Shown: piece after piece, positions 30,001 to 48,000 of the stretch
How positions within the stretch are numbered: the stretch's first letter is position 1
Layout: every line of letters starts with the position of its first letter
NCBI GenBank assembly: GCA_026387455.1
Contig: JAPLLR010000046.1
Location: 68,921 to 132,920 of the forward strand
DNA length: 64,000 bases
Origin: Candidatus Omnitrophota bacterium
Lineage (GTDB): Bacteria > Omnitrophota > Gorgyraeia > Gygaellales > Profunditerraquicolaceae
Reading direction: 5' to 3'
Program-made: the position numbers and the translations under genes
Notes under the pieces: model-generated
What the model saw: the letters and a program-made list of their open reading frames with translations, nothing else
The model's database searches: none
Told to the model about the DNA's origin: nothing

Positions 30001-33000
30001 AAGTTGACCCGGCGATGCGGTCATTCCTGCATACCGCATCTGGACGTTCTTATAATATTCCTCTACCATTCCCGACATTGGAAGGCCAGGCTTATTCCAG
30101 AAGAGGAATTGAAGAACCGGAGTGGCTGGAATCTTTCCTGGGAGTGCAGACAATATTGAGGTTAGTGGATACAGAAAGCAGCCTTATCGAGCAGCAAGTT
30201 TTCTTGGATGCAGCTAGGAGTAGATTCTCTGATTACGGTTTGATTTCCCGCGATGATAAGTTGATACGTATGCTCAACGGCCTAAGGCATAGGGGACTGG
30301 TATTAAATGTCTCGGGAAATAAGGATTTTATCGCCGAGGCTAGCGGTATTATCGGCGTGAGCCTTAATCCGCGCATCCTGGCAGTGTGGGCGGATGACCT
30401 GGATTATATTCAGGATGAGTTGGAGAGAGCGATTGAAAGAGGAAAGAGCGCGTTCTTTACCACTATAGATGATTACGCCAATATAGTCGAACTATGGAAG
30501 CGCTATCCGGTAGAGGCGAAGTATCCGGTTTTAAGGGCAGTAGCGATGTTAAGCCAAGAGCAGCATGAACAAATCGTCACCTGGTTGGTTAACCGTACCA
30601 AATGGAAGAGGTTTCCTTTAGTAGATTCCATTCTTCTTATGCTGGATATCAATGAAGTAAAGAGCGGCTGGCTGAATTATCAGGCCCTACATACGGTAAA
30701 GCGCAGTCTTTATTTCATCGCCGCGGAGATTTCACTCTTAGCCGGAGGTTTGGGCCGCGTTATGCAGTATCACGGCAGAGGGATGAAGCGTCTGGGTGCG
30801 GATGTCGTCTGTGTTGAGCCGTATTACCGCTATACGCGCGACAAATTTGGCTTCCGCCAGGATCTTGATTACAGGAAGCTTCCCTTCCCGGTTAAAAACC
30901 TGGAAAAACTGGAGAAAAACTTTGACACCTTTGTGGGAGGCGAAAGAGTGGAGTTTGAAGTCTGGGCTGGCTATATCCTCAAGAATGTGCGCACTTATCT
31001 CATCCGCGATACTAAGGGAAAATTTGTGAATATTCTTTATGAATACGGGACAACCGATTCCCCCGCTTCTAACATTGAATTTACGGAATTTTTCACCAAG
31101 GCCTCCCTGGAATTGATGCGTTATCTTGAGCTGGAAAAGAAAAGGGACTTAGGCGATGAATACCTTGCTCCGGTAATCGATTGCAATGACGGCCAGGTCC
31201 TGCCCATGGCAGCTTGGAGGAGGATTTTCTATGGCGATATCGCTCGGATAATCGCTGACGAAAACACCGATAAAGAAGAGATACAGGCTACGTGGGAGAT
31301 TATGCGCGACGCGCGCTTCTGCGCAACCACGCATACCTATTTTAACCGTGTCATCATCTACGATCTTGAGTCCGGAAGAGAATTTTTGATGAAAGCCGGC
31401 GTACCTGAAGAGTGGTTATGGGTATTTTTAAGAAGAGATAATGATAGATTTGTTTGGGATTTGACCTCGGGCGGCGTACGCTGCGCGGATATTGCCAAGG
31501 GCGTAAGCGCCATTCAGGCTTTTGAAATGAGTGCGCGCGATCCAGGTGTTGAGCTTTTTGGCATAACTAACGGAGATAACCGTGAATATTCCGCTCAGTT
31601 CTTCAGGCAGGACCTGAAAGAGGGGGGGGTTGAGGATTTCGAATACCCTACGGCAGAAGAAGTGGCATTGGCCAAGAAGATCAGCAAGAGAATGGTCAAA
31701 GATAGAATGCCCGAACAGGAACTTGAACTTAATCCGGAGCAGTTGGTGGTTTCTTACAGCGGACGCCTTGTTCCTGAGAAAGCAGGAAGGATGCGCGCTT
31801 TTACCTCAGAGAATATCGAAGAATGGGTAAAAGCCGGCATACAGGTAGTGATTTTTGGCAATGTTCAGCCTTATGAGCAAAGCCGTAAAATAGCCATGGA
31901 ATTGCATGAGCTACAGCAGCGGCTGGCTTACGCGGGCTATCCCGGAAAATTCATCTTCCGTTCCAAGTTTAATATCAATGAGCAAAGAGCTTTGTTGGCG
32001 GCAAGTGACGTTCAGATACAGGATTCTGATCGTCACACCGGAGCCGCGGAGTTTACTGAATCGGATATCGCGGTAAATGGCGGTTTGCAGATGGGCCCGC
32101 CATTCTGGGAGGGTATTATTCAGCGTCAGGGTAATCCCATCAACAGAAAGACAAAGAGGGGCAATACCCTGGTTCCCGCAAGCGCTGATCCAAAGGATTA
32201 CCGGGATTTAATTCTCCTTTGGGTAAATGAGCAATTCAAAAACAAGGAGTTGGCGGCTTATCAGGCGCAGTCAATCAGACTTAGCCGTGTTTTAGAGGCG
32301 CCTCTTACCGCAGCTGAATATCTTAGGTTCTACGATGCCTCTTTCTATGCGCAGAAGACAAACGCACCCCGGCCTAGGCCTGCTAGCGAAATCGTCATAG
32401 AGGATGTATTTTTGACCCAAGTTACTCATGATGAGATCAAAAAAGTGCAAAAGAAGGGTGATGTATTCTATTATGCGCGTAAGTCCGTCGGAGACGAAAC
32501 TACGGAAAGTACCCTTGAGGTAGATGTCACGGTAAATCTCAAACCCAATGGCGTAAGCGCTATACCGTTTGATCTTGTAAGAGTGGAGCTGGTCTCTGAG
32601 TGGGGAGTAAGGATTCCTTTATGCATAAAAGAGAATCGGGATAATCTGGCTACTTTTTATGCCTTGGTTTCTAATGATCTGGCATTTCCTTTTAAGGGAG
32701 ATGTGGAGGCGACTTCCGGATTATGGAAGGTCAAGAAGCCCATAATAATAGAGGCAAAAGAAAATAGAGGGGCACCAAGCGATAACGCGGCATTCAGCGG
32801 CGGTAAAGACGCAAGCAGTATTATCCAGTTCCATGAGAAGACAATCCAGGATATAGTTGGGGATGTCTCTTCGCGTAACCAAAGACTATTTGTGAATCTT
32901 GGCGATCTGGCCGATGCAGAAATAGATGCAGTAAAAGCCACGTTAAAAGCCCAAGGGCTGGCTCCTTTAGTAGAATATAGCATGGATGCACATTTTGTGC

Positions 33001-36000
33001 GTGGCCCTCCCAGATTGTTTCAGGAGATGGAAAGTTTAATCAAATCTCAGACTCGTTTTGATGTTTCAATAGACGCTTTTAATTTTATCGATGTTAATGA
33101 AAAGATCTGGATAGTCGTCAAGCCCGGCCTTGCCCCTTTGCGCCTGAAGCAGGTTATTGCTCACGAAATTGGCGCGATATTCGGCGTACCCCACCTTTAT
33201 AATTTTAAAGTACTTGAACAGATAGCTGTTGGCAGACAAGGCAGCCAAACTCAGTTTTGGTCTACTCTTGAGGCCATAATAGTCCTCAATTATTACCGCC
33301 TTAAGCCCGGCGAGATAATTATCCCTGTAGATAATTGCGAGTATCGGCTTATTATGCTGCCCTCTAAAAAAGCGCGCGCGATTATTCAGGCGCTTAATAA
33401 CGGATATGATCCGGAAGAAGTATTAAGGGAAATGAATGAATGTGATCGGTCGCTGCGGAATCAAACAGGAAATGGACTATCTTCCGTGGCTGGTTGCCGA
33501 GCCCCGAAAGGGGAGAAGGCGTCCCTTGCGAGCGAAAGCGAGCAAAGGGATGGGGACATTGTAGATTCATCTTGCCCCGTTGCAAAGGGAACAAAAGAGA
33601 TTCTTCCACCTTCCGTGGCTGGTGGGGAAGTTTCTCTTCTTTGCAACGGGGTTTTAGATAAGCCTGCCGCAGCGGCCGCCACTTTAAAGATTCCCAGTCC
33701 GCGTGGCTATATCCCCGACTTTGAGGAGAGGTTCATCTCGGTGATCAATAACGTTTGCAAACCGGCCGAAGCAGATATTTCCAATATTATTTCAACAGAG
33801 CAGATTGATTGGGTGGCGATTATGTCTTTGATCAGGCATAATAATCTGGTGCAGTATGAGTTTGGCCCGGATACCATTGTAGTCCACGCCTTAAATATAA
33901 AAGATGGCCAAGGGGGAGAACTCTTCGGTTTACCGCTTATCCCGGGAAGCTATCATTTTAAAGATCTCCTTCCCGCGGTGTCTTATGTTTCTGCATTAGA
34001 TAATAAGCTGCACATATTCATTACCCGCGCATTCTACGAAGATTACCTGGAGATTTCGCATATGCTGGTGGCCGACGCGCATCCTTCATACGCCCATAGA
34101 AATCTGCAGACTCTGCGCTGGGCAGAGCTTATTGACCATGAGGCCTTTGAGAATTCTCGTCGGTCGCTAGAGATACTTGCAGAAGAGCGGCATAGCCAGG
34201 CGGCACAGCGTGCCTATAACTTTGCTCTAAAGGGTAAATTGAGCCCGTATCATAAATGGGTGATTGATACCCTCGCCACCACTTCGGAAGGATGCCGTCA
34301 TCTGGAGATGATCCTGCAGGAAAGGCGGCCTGGATCCGAAGAGTCAGTGCAAAGAAAATATGAAAAGTATTTTGTCAGATACGTTAAAAACGCCATTTCC
34401 CGCAGGAAATTCTCTACTGAAACTCAAATAATGGCGCATCATCTTTTCCGTGTTTATCATCACGGAGACTGGCAGGCATTCTGTTCTTTATGCGAAGCTT
34501 GTGGTCTGGATGTTATTGAATTAAATGACAGGATAGAAAAGGTAGAGAAAGAATATGTCCTTAAGGAGATCTCGGGTTTTAGTCCGAGCAGGATTATCAC
34601 TAATAGCGGAGAGACTGATGTTGAAATAGATGAAGCTAAGGCTATCGTTAGGAAGATGCCCAAGTCTAAATATTTCAATTTTATCTGGAAGGTGGTGCAA
34701 AAGGATAGACTTGGCAAAAGCTATTTAGACATGCTTGGCGATAGACTGCGAGAAAATTATGAAACGGAGATTTTCTCTCAAGAGAAATTTATGCCTGCGG
34801 TTAGACATCTATTCGCGTTATATCAAAGGTATGGTAGTCAAGCCGGTTTGGTTGTTTCTAGTGAAAGCGAGACAGTATGCAATATTGTCTCGGACTATTT
34901 GGAGCAGTTGAATCTATTGAACAGTTATGTCAAAGCGCGGGATCGCCTTGGAGGGTTAATTGCTGAATTTACCATAATCGGTGGCGTCATCTACCAGGAA
35001 AAGATCATACCCGTTACCGAGTGTCTCGTAGAGTTATCTGAGGGCAAAGGTTATTTCAGGGGATTGCAGGATGCCTCTCTTGAACAAAAAAGCGTGATCG
35101 GCAGAAATATCCTTAAGAAATGTTTGAGCGTAATGGTAGAGTCAGCCAGGCGTGGCCTGATTATTAGCGATGGTAAGTTCACTAATTTCGGGATTATGGC
35201 TAATGGGGAGATTGTTTTATTTGACCTTGGGCCGGGCACATTTTTATCAACGGATGATCCTGAGATTGTTTTGAGTTTACTCCAGTTTGACGGCGTTAAC
35301 GGCATGAATATGTCCAGGCTGCTTAATTTGGCAAAGCTGGAAAGTAATGAGGGAGTCGTATCCACCATAAAAGATATAAAGGCGGTGGAAAGATTGGGAG
35401 AAGAATTATCCCGTGTCTGGCTGGATCTTGTTTCCGCAAGAGAAGTCAATAGCGGTGAAACACCGGAATGGGATTGGAAGAATGACGGGATAGAATTTAT
35501 GGGAAGATTGTCTCGGGCTATCGCCAGGACTCCCGAACAAAAAGCCGCTTCAGCGCAGGCGTTTAGAAGGATAACCTTTATTCCGACGGAGATGGCGATG
35601 GAGCGGATTCTGCGCGTGATTATGCAAGAGTGCGGAATTGCAGGAAGGGCGGTTTCTCGCCAGCTCTACCTGTCAGGTATAAATAAGATGATGCTAGTGT
35701 TGGGTGTTGGCATTATGCTTCTTGTTTTTGCTTATCCGGTATTGTTTGTTGCGTTAGGTCCGTTTTGCATGATCAAAAATGACGATCAATTATCGCAACC
35801 CCTTGAGCCGCAAGCGTCCCGTAAGGCAGGAAGCGTCCCCTTGTTCTCGATTGATCCGCCCGCGTCTAATCGCCTTGCTAAGATTGTCCTTGGCTATCTG
35901 GCTGCTTTCCTCGGGCTTGGTGCGTTAAGCGCACGTTCCGCCGAACCTTATCAGGATGGCCTGCCGTATATCCGCTACTTCCAGAACAATGCTCTGGTGA

Positions 36001-39000
36001 CGAATACATTCAATGGTTTTACCCGCAGTTATCAGGCCGGCGTTCCGGAAGCACATAGAACCCTTGTAGGCGAATACGGTACCTCTTCCTATGATCTTTC
36101 AATATTAGGAAGGATCCAGCTATACAATAACAACACTAATATCCTTGATACCTTTGTGAAATATTTTTCCCAGACAAATGATGTCAACAACCCTGTTTTC
36201 TACTGTGGGAATAATTACACAAACGAGGTCGGGGTGAATATCAAGGGGCTTCCCTTTAATGTCATTAGGTTGCTAGGTAGAGAAATCCCCAACTGGTGGA
36301 ATAATTGGGATTGGAATGTTGATATCGGCGCATCAGCCTGTTTGATCAATTATGCCCTTGATGCCTACAGGCAGAATGGGGACAGCCGTTATCTTAATTT
36401 TGCCATAGCTCAGGCAGATGTATTGCTTAAACTGCAGGATTCAGACGGCGGTTTTAGGTTTGCGCCGATAGGAGTCTCACACGCTGAAGGGGACAGCTTC
36501 TTCTGGAATCTTAAGGCCTTTGAGAAGAATGCCCGTATTTTAAGCGCTTTAGAGAATCTGTATGCGGTAAGTGGTCAGACAAGGTTTGATACGGCTGTAA
36601 CAAGCCTTAAGTCATGGCTTGCCTGGATGTACAATAAGGACGAACATCTATTTCACACCTCAGCGCAATTTGATGGAAGCAGCTGGGTCAGGTCTACTCT
36701 GGGAGCTACAAACGAATATTTTGCCACAGACGTCACTGCATTTGCGCCTATAGAGTGGATGTATAGCGATGCGTATTTTGGCGTAACGCAGGAAGCGCGT
36801 GATACCGAGATCGCGGCTATGTTTGAAGCAACCCGGATAAGAACAGCCTACACCAACTCCGCAGGCATGCCTTTATTCTATAAGTTTTCTGAAAGCCAGA
36901 CCGGAGATTATGGTTCCAGCGAATGGAGTTCGCAGATGGCGCTTGCCTATCTTAGGACAGCCGAGCTTTATTTGGGCCATGACCAGCAAAAATACATTTA
37001 TTATCTTAGCCGCTGGCGCCTGCTTGTTTTGAGCCTGCGGAATAACTTTTTTAAGGTCTGCACGCTTGATAGTTCGTCAAAGGTATCGCCCTATGGCTCA
37101 GATACAGATGGTGGTACCGCAGGATGGGTGCCTACGGGAACCGGATATTATACCGAGGATTATGAGGCCTCCCTTGCCAGCACGTATTATGTCTTTGCAT
37201 TGACCAGATTTGAACCTCTCCAAACCGATGGCGGGAGCGCTGATGCTATGGTTTCTCCTGTGATATCCAAGATAGAAGTTATCTCGGCTAACTTAAATAT
37301 TCGGATAACCATTCGGGATCCTGCAGGCGTATCAGGCTACAATATTTATTACAAGAATTCTTTATTTGATCCTACATGGATACGCTGTGCAGACAATCAT
37401 CCTGCTTCGGGAACAGGTGTGACCCAGTGGATAGATGATGGCACGGGTACAGGAGGGGTCCATCCGAGCCAGGTAAAGACCAGATTCTATATGGTAGAAG
37501 CAATAGATGATCTTTCTATCCAGCAGCCTGCATTAAAAGCTCAAGGGTTATCTTCGGGCTTATTCAATATCACTTCATCTCCCGCAGCTCTTTCGAGTAT
37601 GAAATCTGTATTACCAGCCATAACAACTACTAATGCGGCGGCAAATAAGAAGACAGTGCCGGCGGCCAAAAAATTATTCCTCAATGCGACCGATGCGATC
37701 AAGAAAGGCGGTACGCTGCTGCTTATCATTGGCGCCGTGGCCTTCGCCGCATTCGCGCATCCGGCATCAGTATTTGCTCTGGGAGCTATTTGTTCGATAA
37801 CCGGTGTCGCAGACAAGAAAGAGTTTGTTGTCGCTTCTGACAGGAGATTTGAATTTATTGGGGCGGATATTGAACAGGGTAAGTTTATTATCCCGGACCA
37901 AGCAAGCTCTAAGATCCTGCCGGTGATCAGTCTACTGGTGAACGGCTTTGAATATAGGGTCGGAAACGGCTACTATGTCGTCGTGACTCTAGCTAACGGT
38001 AAGAAGATCTACTGGGGAGGCCAGCATAATCTGTCACACTCATTCTTCTTCGAGCATTACCGCGATAATGCAAAAGATATCATTGATGCGGAAAAACCGT
38101 GGTGGCACGTGGATGCGCACCGCGATACCGGTTATTACGATGTGGAGATCGTGGGAAAAAAGGAAAATGTTGATTGGCAGAAGGAAGTTGGCGTAGGTCT
38201 GGGCGTATCGGAAACAGACTATCTCGGCCGCATGATCGATGAAGGCATAGTCAGGGAATTTGTCATAGCGCAATCATTGGGCGATATAAAGAATCTCGCC
38301 GCTAAAGCTCAGGAAGGCGGCATACTGGATTTAGATATTGATGTGGCAGCCGGGCCAACTCAAGCGGAATTTGTGATACTTGGGAATTTCCAGGATATGC
38401 GCCCGTATCTTATCCAGCTTGCCAGAAAAAGCGAAGTCTGCTTCTTTATTAACAGTTCGGAGCTAAGCCGCGAGTATCTTGGCTCCCCGTTTTATATAGA
38501 CCCGCATCTTTCGATTGCTTTAAATGGTTTGTTAATAGAAGATTTAGCGCGAGGCGCCGCCGAAGCCGATAAAAATAACAACAAGCCCGTGCGTACCTCT
38601 AATATGAGTGCTTTTATTGTTTCGCCTTTGTTCATATCCGGAGTTTTTGTTTTGCTTATTGTCGGATATTCTGCCTGGTATTACCGGGAGGCGATCAGTA
38701 GATTTTTTATATGCTTATTAAGAAAGGGCTTTCCGCAGGAAGAAGTTCAAAAGTCAGGCAAGATACTATCAAAAACAAAGAGGTTGGCGCGGGTTCTTCC
38801 TAAGCCGTGGAAAGGTATTGAGATTAAGGAGGCCCAGCCTCTAAAGGAAGTCAACAAGCGCGTTTGCGCCATTGGCGATGTGCACGCGGATATCGAGGCG
38901 CTGCAAGAACATGTTGATGGCCTGCGTTTTGGCGAGAAAGCAGAGGAGATATTAGTGGTGTGCGGGGATATGGTGGATAAGGGTGGGAAATCTTTAGAAA

Positions 39001-42000
39001 CCTATAAGCTTGTACGTTTTTTCCAGGAAGAAGCCGCGAAAAAAGGCTGCGAGGTAAAGATCCTTTTGGGAAATCATGAGCTTTATTATCTTCTGCGTCA
39101 TGCCAAGGGTGCCTGGCAGCATGAAGGTAAAAACGAAATAGAAAACAATAAGGAATTCGGCCTTATCTTTGGTTTTGATGAGCATCTGTGGGGGAATGAT
39201 GCGGAATTTGTGGAATTTTTGCGCCGGGATATCCGTGACGGCAAAGTGGTAGCTGCTTATACTCTGGGAGGAACGGTATTCTCACACGGCGTAGTTACTG
39301 CTAATTTGATACATCGGTTGGCTCAAGAGCAGAATATGCATGCCGCCAGTCTGCGCCATCCGGAAATATTCGTTGACACCGTAAACAGGATTTTAAAAGA
39401 AGCGGTGGAGGATCCTGGACAGGAATTCAAAAGCACAATCTTTGAGCTTGTAGAAGGCCAATTCAGCATCTATTTTTATGATTTAGGTCTTCCGTTTCTT
39501 GAAGCGCTGCCTTTTGATCAGGTAGTTGGCCATGACCTGCGGGGCTATGCAATGGCAAATAGGATAGTGGTGAAGAAGGCTCCGAATAAAAAGTCGATTA
39601 TCGGTGTAGATGTAGGTATGTCGCGGGGAGTTTCTCAGGATAAAGGTTACAGGCCGGGAAGAGGGGCGTTGGTTTTTGAGAATGGTTTAGTGAATGCGTA
39701 TTATCCTGAATACGCAAAGGCATCTTTTGACGCGCATCTTCCTTTTTCCGTGGGCCGTGCTATAAGCCAGATTGATTTAAGCTCAAAAATGAACTGTTTA
39801 TCGCTAGTAACAATTCCTGTTTTTGCCAAGGCTGCGTTTATAGTTGCTGTAATTATCGGTATTGCCTGGTTGACGTTGTGGTTGGTGAAAAGATCTTCTA
39901 CCCGTGCGCCTCCGGGACCGCGATCTACCTTTCAGAATGTCATCCGCCAGATCAATACCGCCGCCGCAATCATGGGCCTTGACCCGGAAATCCGCGAGAG
40001 ATTGACCAACCCCGAATATTTCGAAGAAGTTGAAGTAGGAATACCGCTTAAAGAGATAGGGATTGATGCCACCGTCGGTATGCGTATCGGCCACAATGGC
40101 GCTTTGGGTGCGTATAAGGGCGGAATCCGTTTTGTCGATATTGAAATCAAGGATCCTGCAACAGGGAAAAAGGTCGAGGATTTCGAAAGCTACAGAAAAC
40201 TTTTTAATCAGACGCTTGAGTCAGTAAAGGACCAGATCCGGGATAAAGACTTGTCATTATCTACCTGGATGAGCTTAAAGAATGCCGTAGCCAACCTTCC
40301 TTACGGCGGAGGCAAGGGTTGCGTGGCGGTGCCTTTCCTTCTCCTTTCAAAAGACGATAATCTTAAAAAACAAATATTAGCCAAGATAATCCGCGAATAT
40401 GTGCGCGCAGCTTACCGGGAGAAAAAATACCTATTTGGCCCATTCAAAGATGTCCCTGCCCCGGATATGAACACCAACGCTGTGATTATGTCCTGGTTTA
40501 TGGATGAACATCTTAAGCTTAAAACCGGGCTGGATCTTTTGGAGAAGCGTTTTGTCGACGGTTTGAAGCCGCTATTAGCTACTGAAGAAACCGATCTTAC
40601 AAAGACTCCAATTTATAACCGCTATATTGAATTGGGTGGAAGCGAGGAATTAGGTACTATCACCGGAAAGCCGGTTTATAAGACTGATCCTGATACTGGT
40701 AAGTTAGTTTTGGATAGCCAGGGCCAGAAGGTTATGGTTGGCGGTTCGCTTGGCCGCGAAGCAGCTACAGGTCAGGGCGTGGTTTTTGCCACCATTCAGG
40801 CTTTAAGGGCCTTTGGCGATAAGTTAGGCATCGGTACAGAGCTTAAGGGGCAGACAGTCGGTGTGCAGGCGATTGGCAATGTCGGAGGGCATGCCGCGCG
40901 CATATACTCTGAAGAAGGAGCATTTGTTGTCAAGATCAGCGACGGTCCGGGGCTCATCTATGATCCCAAGGGTATAAATATCGCAGATCTTTTGAAGCGT
41001 ATTGAAGAAGAGTCTAAGAAAAGCAAAGATAAAGCAAAGGCAATGCGCATCGCCTTTGAAGAAACCCCCGGATTTATTCCTTACGGAAAATATTTTAAGC
41101 TTACAGGTGATGGGGTCAAGGTGTCTTCTAAGAAATGGCCCGGATACCTGCCTACGGAATACGGTATATTCGCCATACCATCAAATATTTTTGTTCCCGC
41201 GTTTAAAGAGGACCAGATCAATCAAAGAATAGCCAAGCTGCTACAGGCTAAGCTAATTGTTGAAGGAGCCAATGGTCCCACCCTACCTGAGGCAGATCAG
41301 ATATTGCAGAAGAGGGGTATTCTGGTAGTGCCGGATATCCTGGCCAATATCGGAGGTGTGGTGGTCTCCTATTTTGAGTGGCTGCAGAACCTAAAATCCG
41401 AGCATTGGCATGAGGGTCCGGTAGTGAATATGCTTGAGCAGAGAATGAATACTTCGGCACAGGAAGTCTTTAATTGCTCAAGAGACTACAATGTCTCTTT
41501 AAGGATCGGAGCTACGATCTTGGCCTTAAAGAGGATCTCCGCGGCTATAGTGGCTGAGAAGGCCTATAAAGACCAAGAGATAATTAATTGCAAGAGCATC
41601 AAAGAGCGAAACGGAGTTTTTAACCAGAAATACCTGCCTTATCGCGGGTATGATCCTTTGGAGCATTATCACACCGCGGAAGAGCTCAACCTTATCTATA
41701 TTTTAGGAAGATATCAGGAGTTTGTCCACCACTGTGAGCAAAGGATTAATCTGGAGATTGGTAATCTTGCCGAGAGGATCCTTAATGAGCTGCCGAGAAA
41801 TCAGAAGCGCTTTGTGATTATTCAGGGGCCGACCGCTGTGGGTAAACAATTCTTCGCCCAGCGTCTCAAAGACGCGGTAATAGCCATAAATTCTGAAGCG
41901 CAAATTGAAGAATATCTGACCGCATATTGCATTGATGCCGAAAACCAGGAAGATTATTCCAGGCTGATTACCTTTGAAGATGAACATACAATATTCTTCT

Positions 42001-45000
42001 TGTACGGAGATTATCTATTGGAAAATAACTTTCTTTCCAGGTTCCCCGAAGAAAACAGATTTCCGATATTTCTAAACACCGCTCCCAGCTTAAAGCTTGG
42101 CGAGAATAAACCCTTTACCTCTACGGATTTAAGGTTGTTGCGCTTGATTCTTGAGGAGATGGGTAAGGGTTACACCGCCTTAAGCGTGATAAAGGCCTGG
42201 CCGACAAAGCGTCTGGAGCAGATAAACAGGATGTATCCTCTTTGGGTCAACTCAAAGGCCACTTTCAATGCCTATGCTCCTTATGAACTTCCGTATCTGG
42301 TGAATACGTTGAAAGAAAAGAAAACGCTGGATATTGCGTTACGCGAGGCAAAGGAAATATTACACGATGAAGAAGCAACCCCTATTATAGAAGAACTCTT
42401 AGGGTTATTTGATGGATTTGTAGATATGCCGTTGCTTCGGGTTGAAGACCTGCCTTTTGATTCTATACCCGGATGTTTTATTGAGAAGATGGAAGATACT
42501 TTGGATATCATTGATAACAAGGCCGGGCATGCCATCAAGGCTTCTGGTCAGATGAAAGCGTCCGAGATATATCCGGAATACGCCAAAGAATTTATCTTCA
42601 TGCATCAGGCGGTACTGAATATTGCCACTGAATACATAAAGGAATCGGGTAAGGAGCTCGGGCCTCCGGAAGATTTTGCCATTGCTGAAAATAGGGTGGG
42701 CGACATCTGGAATATTGAAGGGGGCAGGAATAAGGTAATCGCCATACTCAGTAGCAAAGGCTACACCTTAGAGCAAATAGATAACTTTCTTGATTCGCTA
42801 TGCCGGCATGAGAATTCTCCAGAAGAGCTCGCCGGCCTACAGATGCAGCTAGCGGGATTCCGCTTAAATAGACTTAAAGAGCAGCGCAAATCTGCTTTGG
42901 CAAGAGGCAATGTCAGGAAGATTGGCGATGTAGAAATTATTTTTGATGACGGCCGTGATGAGCAGCCTTTTACCGAGGTAGAGAATGTGGTAGATGTGGA
43001 TATAACCATCCGTATCTGGTTAAGCAGGCCAATAGAAGATCCACTTACTCAGTTAGTGATGAATTTGTGGTACAGCTCCAGCGATAGAAAAGATGAATGG
43101 TCTGAAGGCCTGATGTATTTTGTGCAGCAGGATGAGCTTGATCCGTCTTCGTATGTCTTTAAAGCGCATACTCCGGAATACTTCTCCGGGATGTTTACCT
43201 ATAGGCTCTCTATTGACGGGGGAAAAGCCTACGAATATTTAAATAAGGGGTACGGGGATGACCGCACAATTAGAAATAATACTTCCGGCAGGACCCATAG
43301 ATTTAAGCATATCAATCAGCATCATCAGGCCAATTTTCGTTTCCAGTATTTTTCTATAGAGTTGGCACAGAAGATCATGGAAGAAGTAAGAGTATATTTT
43401 CTGGCCAAGGGTTACAGGCTATATTATCCGATTGGCGACGGTTCGCAGGGTGTGGTTTTCAAGGCCGAAGAGGCGAAGACCCGTAAAATAAGGGCGGTAA
43501 AAGTTTCTCGGCCAAAGGATGAATGTACGTCGGCTTACTGGGGGGTGATAGAAAATGAATTTGAGCTATGGAAGAAGATAGGTCTTTCTGAAGGGGCCTT
43601 TCCGGCTCTGACCCGGGTATTTGACGCGGGTTTGATCAGCCGCAGCGATCTGAGTGTAGGGGATTCGGGATATAGATATTTCTATCAGGTCATGGAGTGG
43701 AGGCACGGCATGGACCTGAGGAAAAGCATTGCCAACGGGTTCTTTGAGACTGAGGATGATATAGAGCTGTTGATCACCAATCTGATCGTTTTTCTTAATC
43801 AGGTGATCATTATGAACCGCGCGGGAGTGACGCATAATGAGCTAGATGATAAAAACATAATGATCAATGAAAATCTTAATTTTATTGCCTGCGATCTTGA
43901 TGGGTTATCCATGAATAACGAAGGAGGCAAAAGAAATGATTTTATCGCATTAAGGGATGTTTTGCGTAAGGTCTTGGAACAGGCAATGCAGGATACCCCT
44001 TATGAAGGGAATATCCAGCCTTTTCTAAATGAATCTTCATCGGGGACCATCTCTCAAGGCATACTTGCAGAATTCTTAAGCAACCTTAAATCCATTAAAG
44101 AAGAAATCGCGCAAAAATATCCTAAAGATGATGAGTTCGCGTTTGTGCTGGATTTCTGCATTGGATTCCTGGAGAAAACAAACGAAATCCTGCGGATATG
44201 CGGCCACGGAGGTAATTATTTCCTTGGGCCGCAGTTCATAAATATGGGCGTTTTACCGGCCTTATGCCAAATAGGTGAAAACCAGCCATATAAGCAGCGC
44301 ATCGAAGCCTTTGTTCTAAAATGGCTTAGTAAATGCAGTGACACGGATGAAATAATCTATTTTCATCTAGGCTTGGAGAGGCTCATAGAAGATTTAAGCG
44401 CGGATTTTGTCTTGGATAACAGAAGCAAGCTGATGCTCGGGTTCATGAAAAGGTTAACCGGGAACATCAGGCAAATAATTATGATACATCAAAGGGATGA
44501 TCTGGAAGCGAAGATTGATGAGTCTGATATTGAGCTTGCTCTGATCGGGGATGATAAGCTGTGCGAAACATTCATTAACGGAAGTATTTGCTCTATCCTG
44601 CATAGCGAGTGTTTTAATACCCCCTATTGTAAATTGGTAAGGGATTTTCTTAATCGCGACACAAAGGACCTGAAGTCCAGGAATAGTCTTGAGCTGCTTG
44701 TTAAGATGCTAGAGAGATTGCTTGCGGAGATTAGGGAAACAGACTCCGTAATGCAAAGGACTGGCCCGCAGGGTCCCCAGATGATGGCTATTGCGGCTTT
44801 GCCGTTGGTGGTTATTCCGGTATCGGCCTATATGGCCATTGGCATTATCGGTATCGTTATATTGGGAGCACTAATATACTTATCTCTAAGGTCCGGGCCA
44901 AAAGACAATACAGAGGAGATCCTGAATATTTATCTGGATGATATGCTAAATAGGCTTAGGGCGCAGGGGAAAGATGCTGTGCGCGAGCTTATGATGAAAT

Positions 45001-48000
45001 ATGATTCATTTTTGCAAAAGAGGGAATATCAGGATAATAAAGAAAAATTGCGGGATGCGTTATTGCACGAAGCTATTTTAATGCTTAGCAGGGTCAGTGA
45101 TAGCCGTAAGAAGACAGAGGCCCTTGCGCACTTGCTTATTAAAAGGGCTCTGAGCGAAAGGGCTAAGCAGAATAAGAAGGTGGTGGGGCGCACTGGGCAA
45201 ATGTATAGCTTTTTGGGGTTTGTAATTTTTCCGCTTGCCGCCGGAATTTTAATTACGTTTGTATCTATAATTTTGATCAGACAATACCTGCATAAAAAGG
45301 CCTTGAATGATCGCCTAGACAGAATGGTTGTGGGGCTCAAGGAGCAAGGAATAGACACAATAAGAGAGCTCGCCTTCAAATATTTCCTTTACTCAAACCA
45401 TGTCGCATTTGCGCGCGATAAGGGAAAGCTTAAGAACCGTATGTTGTCGGAGGCCTCTTTAGAACTAAGAATAATTGATTCTCAATGCGAAGATATTGAA
45501 GCGCTTGCGGAATTGTTGGTAAAGAGAGTTATCGAAGAAAGGGCAGCTAGTAAATCTTCGCTTAGCTTTGCCTCGTCTATCGTTAATTCGCTTATTCTTT
45601 TCGGTGTTAGTCTGGCTATCGCTGTCGCTATAGCCTATTTAGGGCTATCCTTTGCTCCAGTATTATCTTTAGGCCTTTTCTGCGGGATCATCGATGATTC
45701 AAGAAGGCAGTTATTTTCGCCACCGCTCCAGCTGCAGCAACAGCTTAAATTGTTCTCTCCTGCCGCATTTTTAAGGTCGAAGAATACGGTTCCTGTGATC
45801 GAAGGCGATAGCGAAGACATTAAGAATTATCTTTCTTTAATCTGCGATAATCAGGCGCTTTTATTTAAAGTGCATGAGTTATGGCGGCAGGGTGCAAAGG
45901 TAAGCGTGGCCAGGATCTGTGGCGCGTTAGCCCTGCGTAGGAATGGTTCAGTAAGCCTATCTGAAGAATTATTCTCACCCCAGCACCCCGCTCCCGCAAT
46001 GCTTATTTATATGCTGCTGTGTCATGAGGAACAGGCACACCACATTATCAGTGAAGAGGCGGTGGCTATCCGCAGGGAGGTTTCCGCCTGGAATGTGCTT
46101 CGTGATTCCGAGCACGAAGAAATAAAGGCCTGGGCTAAAACTTATCTGAAGAGGCATGCGTTGAGTCAAGATGGGGTCATCTACGATGATTTTATCGCGC
46201 TGGCAAATCAGGTAGCTAAAAATCCTGATGACGATTCTGCGCTTGTTAATTTTGCTGTCGCCAAGTATGGAGACATCCTTCTTCAGAAGCGGTCCGAGAC
46301 GTCTATCATCACCGTCAAGTGCGTTTTAGTCGGATTGATCGCGGCCGTATTCATGTTGGTCTTGTTTGCGGGAGCGCCTTGGCAGCGCGTGGCGTTAGGA
46401 GCTGCCTCGGTTTTATTAGTTTATCTTTTCATCGGACATCTAGGCACTGAACTGCGTTTCTACCGGAATTTCGACACTAAGGGAAGTGTTTTAAATAGCG
46501 TGAAAGACGGCGAAAAAGACGAGGCGGATAAGATCTACAAGCTTTTCTACGGTATCGTCCGTGATTACAAGCTTAACCTTACGCGCCACCTGATTAGGCA
46601 GCGCAAGCTCCTTCTTAAAAACGATATCCTTAGCAACATCATAGCTCCCAGCATTGGAAACGGAGAAGTCCATCAGTCTGTTCTACGCAGCGCCATCGCC
46701 AAAAAGCTGGTATTAGAGGAGATCCTTGCTTCGACTGACCGGACTGTGTATGAGCCGTGTTTTGTGGCTATGGTCGAGTTGATAGTAAAGCATAAGAAAT
46801 TCTGCTTTGACCGTTTTTATCAGGTCATCAAAGATTCCGGAAAACTTCCGGATTGCGCCAGTGCCTTCATCTCCATCTTGGTAAAGGCTGAACACGGTAA
46901 GATCGTTTTAGGGGCAGATGAAGCAGAGCCGGCTTGGATGTTTGAAGCCGTGCTTTTCGCGGCATTAAGAGATCCCCACAGGATACCGGATTTATGGAAG
47001 CAATTCAGGAATGTTTTGAATGATCTTTTTAAGCCGAAGAAACAGGGGCAGATTGACAAGGAGGCGTTTTTTGCCGTTCTGAAGGATATTATTAAGCGTC
47101 TCGCCCAGGAATCCCCCTCGCTTAAGAAAGAGATCATCGCCCATCTTCTGGAGAACACCTCACGCAGCAAAGTGGAATTACCGCTGACCTTCAGTTTACT
47201 TGAAGACCTCGGGTTTCATATTGTGACTTCCAGGGAATTTGCCCGGACTGCCGCCGGGTTAGTCGCTCGCGAGATAAACAGGGTGCAGAATGAATACGGC
47301 CTGGCCAATGTAGTATTTCCCGGAGGCAGGACAGTCAACAGCTATATTGCGGATGGAGGGCTTAGGAAAGGATTCCTCCGGGCGCTGGCTGATCCGGAAT
47401 ACTGTATCTATTGGGAGAGGCTCAACGCTTTTCAGCTGGCAGAATATGACGGCCTTGATGTGCAAAGCTCGTATTCTTATGCGCATACTCTTGAAACAGA
47501 GCTCTTTTCGCGGGTCTTTACCACCCCGGAATTAAGAAGAAATATCCATTATATAGGCGCTCATCCCGATACCAAGGCATACATGGATAGCCTCGAGTCT
47601 TTTGGCGGAGCGGATATTGTCATCCTCGGCGTGGGTTCCGACGGGCATATCGGGCTTAATTCGTATGGTTCGTCTCTGGATATCCGGGAGCAGGGCAGAT
47701 TAAAACAGGTTCTTCTTAACGATGAGATTATCCGCGCCAATATAAAAGATTATCCGGGCATAGAAGCTAATCCTTGCGCCAACACTATGAGCCTTTACGA
47801 TATAGTCTTAGGAGGCAAACCGAATAAGAAAGTTTTTCTTCTAGCCCTCGGTAAGCGCAAGGCGAAGATATTAAGACAGGCGCTCCTTGAGAAGGGTACT
47901 CCGGTGAGCATGCTTCTTGAGAACGCGGATACCACTGTAGTCATAGATGAGGGGGCGGTTGAAGATATTGCCCCGCGTTTCCTGAGTGAAGCTGTGCGCA

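What the first reader, a model, noticed from the sequence alone, without database searches (positions are those of the whole stretch)
39950..41530. Complete Glu/Leu/Phe/Val dehydrogenase domain embedded between TM helices in a giant membrane protein
The family signatures LPYGGGKG, the Rossmann GxGxxG, and the C-terminal EGANGPT...PDILANIGGV.VSYFEWLQN are all present. Amino-acid dehydrogenases are normally free cytosolic enzymes. A copy flanked by TM helices at 39800-39890 and bordered upstream by a PPP phosphatase is highly unusual. It may supply 2-oxoacid, ammonia or NAD(P)H locally, or may have been recruited as a binding module.
Basis: partly seen in the sequence, partly recalled or inferred. 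Interest (0 to 1): 0.58.

Follow-up and report, generated by a model that had tools for sequence, protein, structure and literature searches.

The report
Glutamate dehydrogenase module inside giant protein
A complete, apparently functional glutamate dehydrogenase, fused to a decayed kinase-like domain, sits inside a single stop-free gene of more than 64,000 bases; this resembles the recently described giant multi-enzyme proteins of Omnitrophota bacteria, so it is a new detail of a known oddity rather than a new kind of system.

Summary
Nt 39921-41570 encode a full Glu/Leu/Phe/Val-dehydrogenase domain (Pfam 8e-58 and 9.5e-22; AlphaFold pLDDT 90; TM-score 0.82-0.91 to hexameric GDHs). All catalytic and glutamate-specificity residues are present. 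It lies in one reading frame with no stop across the whole 64-kb window (at least 21,332 aa, about 30 hydrophobic helices, at least 17 Pfam families).

The new result is that the GDH is half of a conserved two-domain module. The second half is a degenerate uridine-kinase/PRK-like P-loop domain. About 38 cluster representatives carry this module. Three are free-standing proteins of about 800-850 aa, one of them from a Verrucomicrobiae MAG. The rest are multi-thousand-residue proteins, and those that carry a source organism name are from Candidatus Omnitrophota MAGs. The GDH active-site residues are invariant or 33/34 in 34 diverged copies, which argues for catalysis rather than a mere binding module.

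Only the N-terminal side has an adjacent TM helix, and TM adjacency is not conserved in relatives. Giant multi-enzyme Omnitrophota proteins are already described (West-Roberts 2023; Nielsen & Lui 2026), and NCBI already names some of them as ELFV-domain proteins. This is therefore a new variant of a known kind. The side of the membrane on which the module works is unresolved.

The parts
3..63998 (+). Single stop-free reading frame (21,332 codons), open at both window ends: part of a giant gene longer than 64 kb
   Evidence: 0 stops in frame +3 versus 723-1,740 in the other five frames; at least 17 Pfam families along it; 31 strongly hydrophobic 19-mers.
38595..38684 (+). Hydrophobic (TM-like) helix, aa 12865-12894, upstream of the phosphatase domain
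   Evidence: KD 2.52; uncharged span of 30 aa; flanks +4/+4 K/R.
38859..39752 (+). PPP/ApaH-like metallophosphatase domain (GDVHAD, GDMVDKG, GNHE). The Pfam match covers aa 12953-13097; the domain is inferred to extend to about aa 13250
   Evidence: Metallophos 6.9e-11. PRK00166 ApaH-like 2.9e-10, PrpA/B-like ~1e-3; no close homologues by word-indexed search.
39789..39887 (+). 33-aa hydrophobic stretch MNCLSLVTIPVFAKAAFIVAVIIGIAWLTLWLV (core TM aa 13277-13295), followed by KRSSTR, directly N-terminal to the GDH
   Evidence: The 59%-identical fragment P0003 has two hydrophobic helices at the same place.
39921..41570 (+). Glutamate dehydrogenase domain (aa 13307-13856). K89/K113/K125/D165/S380 equivalents are K13372, K13426, K13438, D13488 and S13789. 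The dinucleotide motif AIGNVG is at aa 13623-13628
   Evidence: AlphaFold pLDDT 90.1, pTM 0.90. Foldseek TM-score 0.82-0.91, normalised to target, against hexameric GDHs.
40137..40241 (+). Insertion 1 (aa 13379-13413), shared with P0003 and partly with P0124; absent from ordinary GDHs and from P0001/P0002
   Evidence: Modelled with pLDDT ~85-90.
40512..40718 (+). Insertion 2 (aa 13504-13572) after the MSWFMDEH helix. Its first part is shared by the aligned module-bearing GDHs
   Evidence: pLDDT 70-85.
41013..41165 (+). Insertion 3 (aa 13671-13721) in the NAD(P)-binding domain
   Evidence: pLDDT ~90-95.
41676..42500 (+). Degenerate uridine-kinase/PRK-like P-loop domain (aa 13892-14166). The P-loop GPTAVGKQ lies at nt 41826-41849, with Gln where Walker A needs Ser/Thr
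   Evidence: the only hits are 555-aa PF00485 proteins (1.8e-6); alignment shows a ~45-aa deletion and RRIxRD changed to LRLILEE; the S/T position is hypervariable in 34 copies; no Pfam family. P-loop kinase-like fold at moderate confidence.
43422..43910 (+). Protein-kinase-like domain downstream of the module (aa 14474-14636)
   Evidence: Pkinase 2e-7, 31.1 bits, just under the 31.7-bit cutoff.
44760..44888 (+). Next hydrophobic region downstream (aa 14920-14962)

Best explanation
Nt 39921-42500 encode one copy of a conserved two-domain module. The first domain is a catalytically competent, glutamate-specific NAD(P)-dependent GDH of the ~420-aa hexameric type, related to Thermotoga and Thermococcus enzymes and carrying three structured insertions. 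The second domain is a degenerate uridine-kinase/PRK-like P-loop domain that has probably lost phosphotransfer; I infer that it may serve as a nucleotide-binding or regulatory/assembly appendage. The module is one of about twenty enzyme and signalling units strung along a polypeptide of more than 21,332 aa and tethered by hydrophobic helices. This matches the 'multi-enzyme metabolic' class of Omnitrophota giant proteins. The hydrophobic segment at aa 13263-13295 anchors the module at the membrane. The most likely activity is reversible glutamate to 2-oxoglutarate + NH4+ with NAD(P)+, carried out at the membrane surface alongside the neighbouring sugar-phosphate, kinase and phosphatase modules, most probably on the cytoplasmic face where NAD(P) is available. 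Shown here: domain identity, fold, residue conservation, recurrence and monophyly of the module, and the continuous ORF. Inferred: activity, cofactor, oligomeric state, side of the membrane, role of the kinase-like domain, and the Omnitrophota origin of this particular window.
For: The GDH is identified by Pfam (8e-58 and 9.5e-22), NCBIfam (GdhA_Arch 1.1e-81) and PDB sequence search (GDHs at 1.6e-70 against PheDH at 2e-12). The fold is confirmed: pLDDT 90.1 and TM-score 0.82-0.91. K89, K113, K125, D165, S380 and the GAN Asn are invariant or 33/34 in 34 module copies at 30-55% identity. An exhaustive HMMER search finds the GDH followed by the kinase-like domain, in the same order and adjacent or nearly so, in about 38 cluster representatives of 750-7,823 aa. 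These GDHs form one bipartition against 68 single-domain GDHs, with 82/100 NJ bootstrap. The closest relative, P0124 (56% identity), and P0129, P0132 and P0152/P0276 are from Candidatus Omnitrophota MAGs. P0129 is a complete 6,804-aa gene on an 88-kb contig. The window ORF has no stop in 64 kb. It carries PF08323, PGM_PMM I-III, Response_reg and HATPase_c, which are the families listed for Omnitrophota giant proteins in 10.64898/2026.06.07.730766, section 8. The module's GC content does not differ from its surroundings, and there is no excess of promoter-like or terminator-like sites.
Against: No activity, cofactor or oligomer data exist. GDHs of this type work as hexamers, and it is unclear how a domain inside a >21,000-aa membrane protein would assemble. 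The score is far below the NCBIfam equivalog cutoffs (275 against 750 bits). The first Gly of GxGxxG is Ala. Counting predicted helices places nucleotide-dependent domains on both sides of the membrane if every helix spans it, so the cytoplasmic-face assumption is not derived from topology. Of the 27 full-length module-bearing relatives, 22 start with Sec-signal-like N-termini, which points outward rather than inward. The source genome was not found, so the Omnitrophota origin is by similarity only.
Confidence: 0.6

Rival explanations
1. The module is extracytoplasmic. The giant protein is exported or surface-displayed, or delivered into a host or prey cell, and the GDH acts on host-derived glutamate and NAD(P) rather than in the bacterium's own cytoplasm.
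For: 22 of 27 full-length relatives carrying the module begin with a Sec-signal-like N-terminus, and several of them (for example P0133 and P0141) have no strong hydrophobic helix by the scan. The three free-standing ~800-aa versions lack such a signal. West-Roberts et al. report glycolytic-enzyme domains of these giants as predicted extracellular and link the proteins to predation. Nielsen & Lui call the 147-kAA multi-enzyme giant SP+TM.
Against: NAD(P) is not known to be available outside the cytoplasm. The signal calls here come from a hydropathy/charge heuristic, not SignalP. The K/R-rich flank (KRSSTR..PR) after TM 13277-13295 favours a cytoplasmic GDH side by the positive-inside rule. 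The window lacks the N-terminus, so its own targeting is unknown.
Confidence: 0.2
2. The giant ORF is a polyprotein. Proteolysis near the hydrophobic linkers releases a soluble ~850-aa GDH/kinase-like enzyme equivalent to the free-standing P0001/P0002 proteins, which then forms ordinary hexamers.
For: The same two-domain unit exists as an independent 796-852-aa protein in ordinary gene context. West-Roberts et al. note C39 and S8 peptidase domains in giant proteins that 'might cleave the giant proteins'. Release would solve the oligomerisation problem.
Against: No peptidase domain or recognisable cleavage motif was found in this window. No proteomic evidence is available.
Confidence: 0.2
3. 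The GDH domain is a non-catalytic ligand sensor or scaffold for glutamate, 2-oxoglutarate or NAD(P)H. It would feed the surrounding signalling domains (PPP phosphatase, protein kinases, PAS, histidine-kinase ATPase, receiver).
For: It is flanked by a phosphatase and a kinase-like domain, and the ORF is rich in signalling domains. The adjacent kinase-like domain is clearly degenerate.
Against: Residues needed only for chemistry (K125, D165) are invariant in all 34 copies, not just the binding residues. The fold is intact at high confidence.
Confidence: 0.1
4. It is a Leu/Val/Phe-type amino-acid dehydrogenase rather than a GDH.
For: The Pfam family covers all four specificities.
Against: The glutamate gamma-carboxylate ligands K89 and S380 are conserved; by established knowledge of the family, LeuDH and PheDH carry hydrophobic residues at these positions. 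PheDH structures score 49 bits against 241 bits for GDH. The top NCBIfam matches are GDH models.
Confidence: 0.03
5. It is an artefact: a mis-assembly, a chimeric contig or a decaying pseudogene that merely looks like a fused gene.
For: The source contig could not be retrieved for inspection.
Against: A frame with 0 stops in 21,332 codons cannot arise by chance or by chimerism when the other frames carry one stop per 12-30 codons. Independent assemblies encode homologous modules inside proteins of 2,000-7,800 aa.
Confidence: 0.02

Closest known systems
Hexameric ~420-aa glutamate dehydrogenases (Thermotoga maritima 2tmg/1b26, Thermococcus profundus 1euz, plant GDH1/2 6yei/8owm)
   Same: Same two-domain fold (TM-score 0.82-0.91), about 30% identity, and all catalytic and glutamate-binding residues.
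   Different: About 135 extra residues in three insertions. Ala at the first Gly of GxGxxG. A C-terminal kinase-like domain. Embedded in a polypeptide of more than 21,000 aa behind a hydrophobic helix, rather than a free cytosolic hexamer.
Giant multi-enzyme proteins of Omnitrophota ('Archaeovorins', West-Roberts et al. 2023, 10.1101/2023.11.21.568195; 'multi-enzyme metabolic clusters', Nielsen & Lui 2026, 10.64898/2026.06.07.730766)
   Same: Length above 10 kAA, dozens of TM helices, and many different Pfam families with none dominating. GT5 starch-synthase, PGM/PMM, HATPase_c and receiver domains are present. Embedded central-metabolism enzymes have an uncertain side of the membrane.
   Different: Neither paper's main text mentions a GDH/ELFV domain or the GDH/kinase-like module. 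No SecA-DEAD, HEAT or peptidase domain is seen in this 64-kb window. The taxonomic origin of the window is inferred, not shown.
Free-standing GDH/kinase-like proteins P0001 (796 aa, JGI metagenome), P0002 (800 aa, Verrucomicrobiae MAG GCA_028687435.1) and P0128 (852 aa)
   Same: Same domain order, shared insertion 2, and the same degenerate P-loop (GxxxxGK followed by a non-S/T residue). They group with the embedded copies in the same GDH bipartition.
   Different: Independent genes in ordinary context, with no signal peptide or TM helix and no giant scaffold. Only 36-40% identical. They lack insertions 1 and 3.
PRK/uridine-kinase family (PF00485), as in the 555-aa proteins P0121-P0123
   Same: The kinase-like domain aligns over the P-loop and the D-x-R-L-x-R...W-P...R...Y-P...N-A...F-N...Y-E-L block.
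   Different: No Pfam hit. The Walker-A Ser/Thr is replaced (Gln here; 11 different residues across 34 copies). About 45 aa of the substrate-binding region are deleted. The RRIxRD arginines and aspartate are partly lost.

Membership tests
ELFV (Glu/Leu/Phe/Val) dehydrogenase superfamily, GDH branch | Both Pfam domains (PF02812 and PF00208) score above their gathering thresholds | tested here: met
   77.5 bits (cutoff 25.3) and 196.4 bits (cutoff 23.4).
ELFV (Glu/Leu/Phe/Val) dehydrogenase superfamily, GDH branch | Catalytic Lys in the Gly-rich signature (PROSITE PS00074-type, GGGKG), plus K113 and D165 | tested here: met
   K13438, K13426 and D13488 are present. All three are invariant in 34 module copies and 6 free GDHs.
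ELFV (Glu/Leu/Phe/Val) dehydrogenase superfamily, GDH branch | Glutamate specificity residues (K89, S380) rather than the hydrophobic residues of LeuDH/PheDH | tested here: met
   K13372 and S13789. K is 33/34 and S is 34/34 among module copies. The role of these residues rests on established knowledge of Clostridium symbiosum GDH.
ELFV (Glu/Leu/Phe/Val) dehydrogenase superfamily, GDH branch | Dinucleotide-binding GxGxxG/A motif | tested here: inconclusive
   The motif reads AIGNVG. The second and third Gly are present, but the first is Ala (7/34 copies). The Rossmann fold is modelled at pLDDT >95.
ELFV (Glu/Leu/Phe/Val) dehydrogenase superfamily, GDH branch | GDH fold | tested here: met
   Foldseek E 1.5e-35, TM-score (target-normalised) 0.82-0.91 to more than 40 GDH chains.
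ELFV (Glu/Leu/Phe/Val) dehydrogenase superfamily, GDH branch | Hexameric assembly and measurable NAD(P)-dependent activity | not testable with these tools
   Needs biochemistry or multimer modelling.
Curated GDH equivalogs (NCBIfam GdhA_Arch NF040817, GdhB_Halo, PRK09414) | Whole-protein score above the curated cutoff | tested here: not met
   275, 255 and 131 bits against cutoffs of 750, 620 and 536. The match is broken into 4 stretches by the insertions.
Omnitrophota giant 'multi-enzyme metabolic' proteins | Polypeptide of at least 10,000 aa with many TM helices | tested here: met
   At least 21,332 aa with no stop. 31-47 hydrophobic segments depending on the threshold.
Omnitrophota giant 'multi-enzyme metabolic' proteins | Many distinct Pfam families tile the protein with none dominating; typical content is PF08323, PGM/PMM, PF00072 and PF02518 | tested here: met
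   Searches compared with section 8 of 10.64898/2026.06.07.730766.
Omnitrophota giant 'multi-enzyme metabolic' proteins | Encoded by an Omnitrophota genome | tested here: inconclusive
   The closest module relatives are from Ca. Omnitrophota MAGs (56% identity). The source contig is absent from the genome and metagenome collections searched.
Omnitrophota giant 'multi-enzyme metabolic' proteins | Divergent SecA-DEAD domain (present in 'most' giants according to West-Roberts et al.) | tested here: not met
   No SecA hit in the 21,332 aa of the window. The gene continues beyond both ends, so absence from the whole protein is not shown.
PRK/uridine kinase family (PF00485), for the domain after the GDH | Pfam match and canonical Walker A GxxxxGK[ST] | tested here: not met
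   No PF00485 hit even at E<=10. The motif is GPTAVGKQ, and the S/T position is hypervariable. Only distant similarity to PF00485 proteins, 1.8e-6.
Large bacterial GDHs (115/180-kDa class) | Match to the Pfam model for the large bacterial NAD-GDH class (named from memory as Bac_GDH) | tested here: not met
   Only PF00208 and PF02812 were reported in this region. The best structural relatives are ~420-aa GDHs.

The most novel reading that the evidence does not exclude
The GDH/kinase-like module is an exported or host-delivered NAD(P)-dependent dehydrogenase. Omnitrophota giant proteins would then carry intact central-metabolism enzymes across their own membrane. These enzymes would work in an enlarged periplasm, on the cell surface or inside an attached host or prey cell. 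There the GDH would convert the host's abundant glutamate pool into 2-oxoglutarate, ammonium and reducing equivalents for a symbiont that lacks a complete TCA cycle. The degenerate kinase-like domain would act as a nucleotide-sensing switch.
Probability: 0.15. Interest if true: 0.85.

Novelty: new variant of a known kind. Interest (0 to 1): 0.5.

Why it matters
Giant Omnitrophota proteins are a recognised puzzle. Why would bacteria with small cells and genomes string ordinary cytosolic enzymes into membrane-threaded polypeptides tens of thousands of residues long, and on which side of the membrane do those enzymes work? The GDH/kinase-like module offers a tractable handle on that puzzle.

- It is a well-understood enzyme with a simple assay.
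- It has strictly conserved catalytic residues.
- It occurs both free-standing and embedded, and many embedded relatives carry signal-like N-termini.

Showing where this module sits and whether it is active would test the competing views of giant proteins: a cytoplasmic metabolon, an exported effector or a polyprotein. For GDH enzymology, it defines a previously undescribed clade with a fused degenerate P-loop domain, which might provide nucleotide regulation; that role is speculation.

Tried and rejected
- **Source or sister loci.** I searched the GTDB-representative genomes and the JGI metagenomes for the source contig or close relatives, using the GDH segment and a window+P0003 alignment. 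Searches found nothing. One search returned only an ordinary 451-aa GDH in a high-GC contig (L003), which is irrelevant. No DNA-level comparison or dN/dS was therefore possible.
- **Phosphatase homologues.** A word-indexed homologue search with the phosphatase+TM segment found nothing at E<=1e-3. Conservation of the phosphatase-TM-GDH adjacency could not be assessed.
- **Kinase-like domain.** Pfam and PDB sequence searches gave only noise (nSTAND3 0.0025; NadR 0.26). Foldseek on its moderate-confidence model gave only weak P-loop kinase hits. The domain is called 'PRK/uridine-kinase-like' on the basis and the alignment, not as a family member.
- **Topology.** The K/R balance around 47 hydrophobic segments shows no consistent bias. 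Helix-count parity puts ATP-dependent and NDP-sugar-dependent domains on both sides. I reject any firm topology claim.
- **Internal gene starts.** There is no Shine-Dalgarno sequence before the ATG at nt 39789 and no excess of promoter-like or terminator-like sites.
- **C-terminal domain of relatives.** NCBIfam has no family for it.
- **Literature.** No paper was found that links GDH to Omnitrophota giant proteins. No ELFV, glutamate dehydrogenase or PF00208 term occurs in the one supplement file held for the 2026 preprint, and no supplement text is held for the 2023 preprint.
- **Failed call.** A Pfam scan of P0129 failed on the length limit.
Full report
**Observation.**
Translating the window shows that frame +3 (nt 3-63998) has no stop codon in 21,332 codons and runs off both ends. 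The other five frames carry 723-1,740 stops each. The finding therefore lies inside a single giant gene.

The quoted motifs are all present in this frame. Pfam reports ELFV_dehydrog at 8e-58 (aa 13580-13849), ELFV_dehydrog_N at 9.5e-22 (aa 13391-13502) and, upstream, Metallophos at 6.9e-11 (aa 12953-13097). NCBIfam ranks GDH models first. GdhA_Arch scores 1.1e-81 but only 275 bits against a cutoff of 750, and the match is split into four stretches. NCBIfam also identifies the phosphatase as ApaH/PrpA-like.

A PDB sequence search aligns aa 13307-13848 to Thermotoga maritima GDH (2tmg, 1.6e-70) in four blocks separated by three insertions. Phenylalanine dehydrogenases reach only 2e-12. An AlphaFold model built on 79 sequences has pLDDT 90.1 and pTM 0.90, and the insertions are also modelled with confidence. 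Foldseek matches more than 40 hexameric GDH chains with target-normalised TM-scores of 0.82-0.91.

Its core is aa 13277-13295, nt 39831-39887. The next strong hydrophobic helix downstream is at aa 14944, about 1,090 aa after the GDH ends.

**What surrounds it.**
Pfam scans of the whole ORF in overlapping 1,100-aa pieces give the following domains:
- Pribosyltran, Response_reg and HATPase_c
- PGM_PMM I-III and Glycos_transf_2
- RIO1/Pkinase and DUF4922
- Glyco_transf_5 (starch synthase)
- Metallophos and the GDH
- three further Pkinase-like domains
- Glucosamine_iso, PAS_9 and a weak Sigma70_r4

The first 5,000 aa have no Pfam match. A Kyte-Doolittle scan finds 31 strongly hydrophobic 19-mers, or 47 at a laxer threshold.

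This is the architecture described for Omnitrophota giant proteins. West-Roberts et al. describe 'Archaeovorins' with many TM helices, GT5, PGM/PMM and other central-metabolism domains of doubtful predicted localisation. Nielsen & Lui define a 'multi-enzyme metabolic cluster' class rich in PF08323, PGM/PMM, PF00072 and PF02518, mostly predicted to be membrane-anchored. Neither main text mentions a GDH/ELFV domain.

**The GDH is half of a conserved module.**
The best word-indexed homologues of the GDH were unexpectedly 796-800-aa proteins, P0001 and P0002. Their extra ~300 C-terminal residues align with the sequence that follows the GDH in the window. P0002 is an ordinary free-standing gene in a Verrucomicrobiae MAG. 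P0003 is a 418-aa fragment from a TARA sample that is 59% identical. It includes two hydrophobic helices just upstream of its GDH and shares insertion 1.

The C-terminal domain has no Pfam family. Its only detectable relatives are 555-aa PF00485 (PRK/uridine-kinase) proteins (1.8e-6). The alignment shows a shared P-loop and a conserved C-terminal block. It also shows a ~45-aa deletion and loss of the Walker-A Ser/Thr, giving GPTAVGK-Q. Its model (pLDDT 68) gives only weak P-loop-kinase fold matches.

An exhaustive HMMER search of 1.84 billion representatives with the 902-aa module found about 38 proteins that carry both domains, in the same order and adjacent or nearly so. They range from 750 to 7,823 aa, and many are truncated by contig ends. 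The nearest is P0124, at 56% identity over 800+ residues. P0124, P0129 (6,804 aa), P0132 and P0152/P0276 (7,823 aa) come from Candidatus Omnitrophota MAGs. NCBI already names two of them 'Glu/Leu/Phe/Val dehydrogenase dimerization domain-containing protein'. P0129 is a complete gene on an 88-kb contig.

Relatives combine the module with other metabolic domains: glycogen phosphorylase and a nucleotidyltransferase in P0124, and acetate kinase in P0125. An HMM built from the module finds exactly one copy in the window, at aa 13303-14154.

**Is the GDH still an enzyme?**
In a MAFFT alignment of 34 module copies that share only 30-55% identity with the window, the key residues are conserved as follows:
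- The equivalents of K113, K125 (in the GGGKG signature), D165 and S380, and the Arg of the GGSxGR motif, are 34/34.
- K89 and the Asn of EGANGPT are 33/34.

K89 and S380 bind the glutamate side-chain carboxylate in characterised GDHs and are hydrophobic in LeuDH and PheDH; this point rests on established knowledge of the family. Glutamate is therefore the expected substrate.

The kinase-like domain behaves differently. It keeps GxxxxGK (33/34), but the next position, which must be Ser or Thr for Mg-ATP chemistry, is occupied by eleven different residues. I conclude that the GDH is under selection for catalysis, whereas the P-loop domain is a degenerate kinase retained for some other role. Nucleotide binding, regulation or assembly are possibilities, but this is inference.

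A neighbour-joining tree on 411 well-occupied columns puts all module-bearing GDHs in one bipartition, separate from 68 single-domain GDHs, with 82/100 bootstrap support. The window groups with P0003, P0124 and P0125.

**Membrane relationship.**
A TM helix adjacent to the module is not conserved. Among 33 relatives the nearest strong hydrophobic helix lies from 56 to more than 1,800 aa away, or is absent. The TM helix in the window is thus a property of this giant protein's tethering, not of the module.

Which side the GDH faces cannot be settled here:
- The C-terminal flank of TM 13277-13295 is K/R-rich (KRSSTRAPPGPR). This favours a cytoplasmic GDH side.
- The flank after the preceding TM (aa 12865-12894) is also K/R-rich. 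With one spanning helix between them, the phosphatase and the GDH would lie on opposite sides.
- The 33-aa hydrophobic stretch, together with the two helices at the same place in P0003, allows a hairpin or re-entrant anchor that would keep both domains on one side.
- Across the whole ORF, helix-count parity places nucleotide-dependent domains on both sides. I read this as unreliable prediction, the same caveat West-Roberts et al. raise.
- 22 of 27 full-length module-bearing relatives start with a Sec-signal-like N-terminus, while the three free-standing ~800-aa versions do not. This keeps an extracytoplasmic or host-delivered reading alive.

**Mechanism I commit to.**
The segment is a membrane-tethered, catalytically active glutamate dehydrogenase with a fused degenerate P-loop domain. 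It is one unit of a giant multi-enzyme polypeptide and interconverts glutamate and 2-oxoglutarate + NH4+ with NAD(P). It most likely works on the cytoplasmic face (confidence 0.6 for the package). The fragmentary TCA cycle with isocitrate dehydrogenase present, reported for Omnitrophota, would give such an enzyme an obvious place in nitrogen assimilation or glutamate catabolism; this is inference.

The rivals are:
- export or host delivery (0.2)
- polyprotein processing that releases a P0002-like soluble enzyme (0.2, not exclusive of the main explanation)
- a non-catalytic sensor (0.1)
- a different substrate (0.03)
- an artefact (0.02)

**Novelty.**
The host architecture is known, and automatic annotation already flags ELFV domains in a few Omnitrophota giants. 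The literature searched here does not describe:
- the conserved, monophyletic GDH/degenerate-kinase module
- its occurrence both free-standing and embedded
- the strict conservation of the GDH active site
- the signal-like N-termini of its carriers

I rate this a new variant of a known kind, of moderate interest.

Noticed in passing
window 3-63998 (+): The whole 64-kb window is one reading frame with no stop codon (21,332 codons), open at both ends. Every other frame has 723-1,740 stops.
   Followed up: yes
window 41676-42500 (+): Directly after the GDH lies a P-loop domain distantly related to PRK/uridine kinases. Its Walker-A Ser/Thr is replaced (GPTAVGKQ) and about 45 aa are deleted. This domain follows the GDH in all ~38 related proteins.
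   Followed up: yes
Relatives P0125-P0170 (N-termini); not in window: 22 of 27 full-length proteins carrying the GDH module begin with a Sec-signal-like sequence, often ending in FLxQ(Q/D)I(V/L)WA. The three free-standing ~800-aa versions do not. This suggests export of an NAD(P)-dependent enzyme. It was judged by a hydropathy/charge heuristic only.
   Followed up: partly
Relatives P0127, P0130, P0133, P0135, P0138, P0141, P0143, P0144, P0148, P0151, P0152 (C-termini); not in window: Many of these large proteins share a C-terminal region that ends in an amphipathic helix and a terminal Ala (for example RYARLQQLLRFA, RLYERAYEIYTSA, SYYERCLREVLIRA, FLAQERATAKSA). NCBIfam has no family for it. 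It could be a sorting or assembly signal.
   Followed up: partly
window 3-15000 (+), aa 1-5000: No Pfam family matches the first 5,000 residues. They contain two clusters of hydrophobic helices (aa ~1518-2100 and ~2633-2980) that look like polytopic membrane domains.
   Followed up: no
window 58278-58430 (+), aa ~19426-19476: A weak Sigma70_r4 (helix-turn-helix) match at 5.4e-5, 23.1 bits against a cutoff of 24.1, inside the giant membrane protein. It would be odd if real.
   Followed up: no
window 15516-24185 (+), aa ~5172-8061: A run of phosphoribosyltransferase, receiver, histidine-kinase ATPase, PGM/PMM I-III and GT2 domains, interrupted by single hydrophobic helices. Counting helices puts ATP-dependent and NDP-sugar-dependent domains on alternating sides, so either the helices are not all membrane-spanning or the predictions are unreliable.
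   Followed up: partly
window 38859-39752 (+): The PPP/ApaH-like phosphatase upstream of the GDH is so divergent that a word-indexed search of 5.8 billion proteins found no homologue at E<=1e-3, although the GDxHxD, GDxVDKG and GNHE motifs are intact.
   Followed up: partly
P0124 (closest relative), aa ~1290 and ~1620: The sequence GLRQDAQQGVDLSVAGGDSSAAAA occurs twice in P0124, once just before its GDH module. It may be a repeated inter-module linker.
   Followed up: no
L004 (GCA_015231405.1 contig JADGBR010000011.1): The 6,804-aa GDH-module protein P0129 lies directly downstream of a chemotaxis operon (CheR, CheW, MCP, CheA, CheB). A 1,401-aa protein with a weak dockerin hit lies nearby.
   Followed up: no
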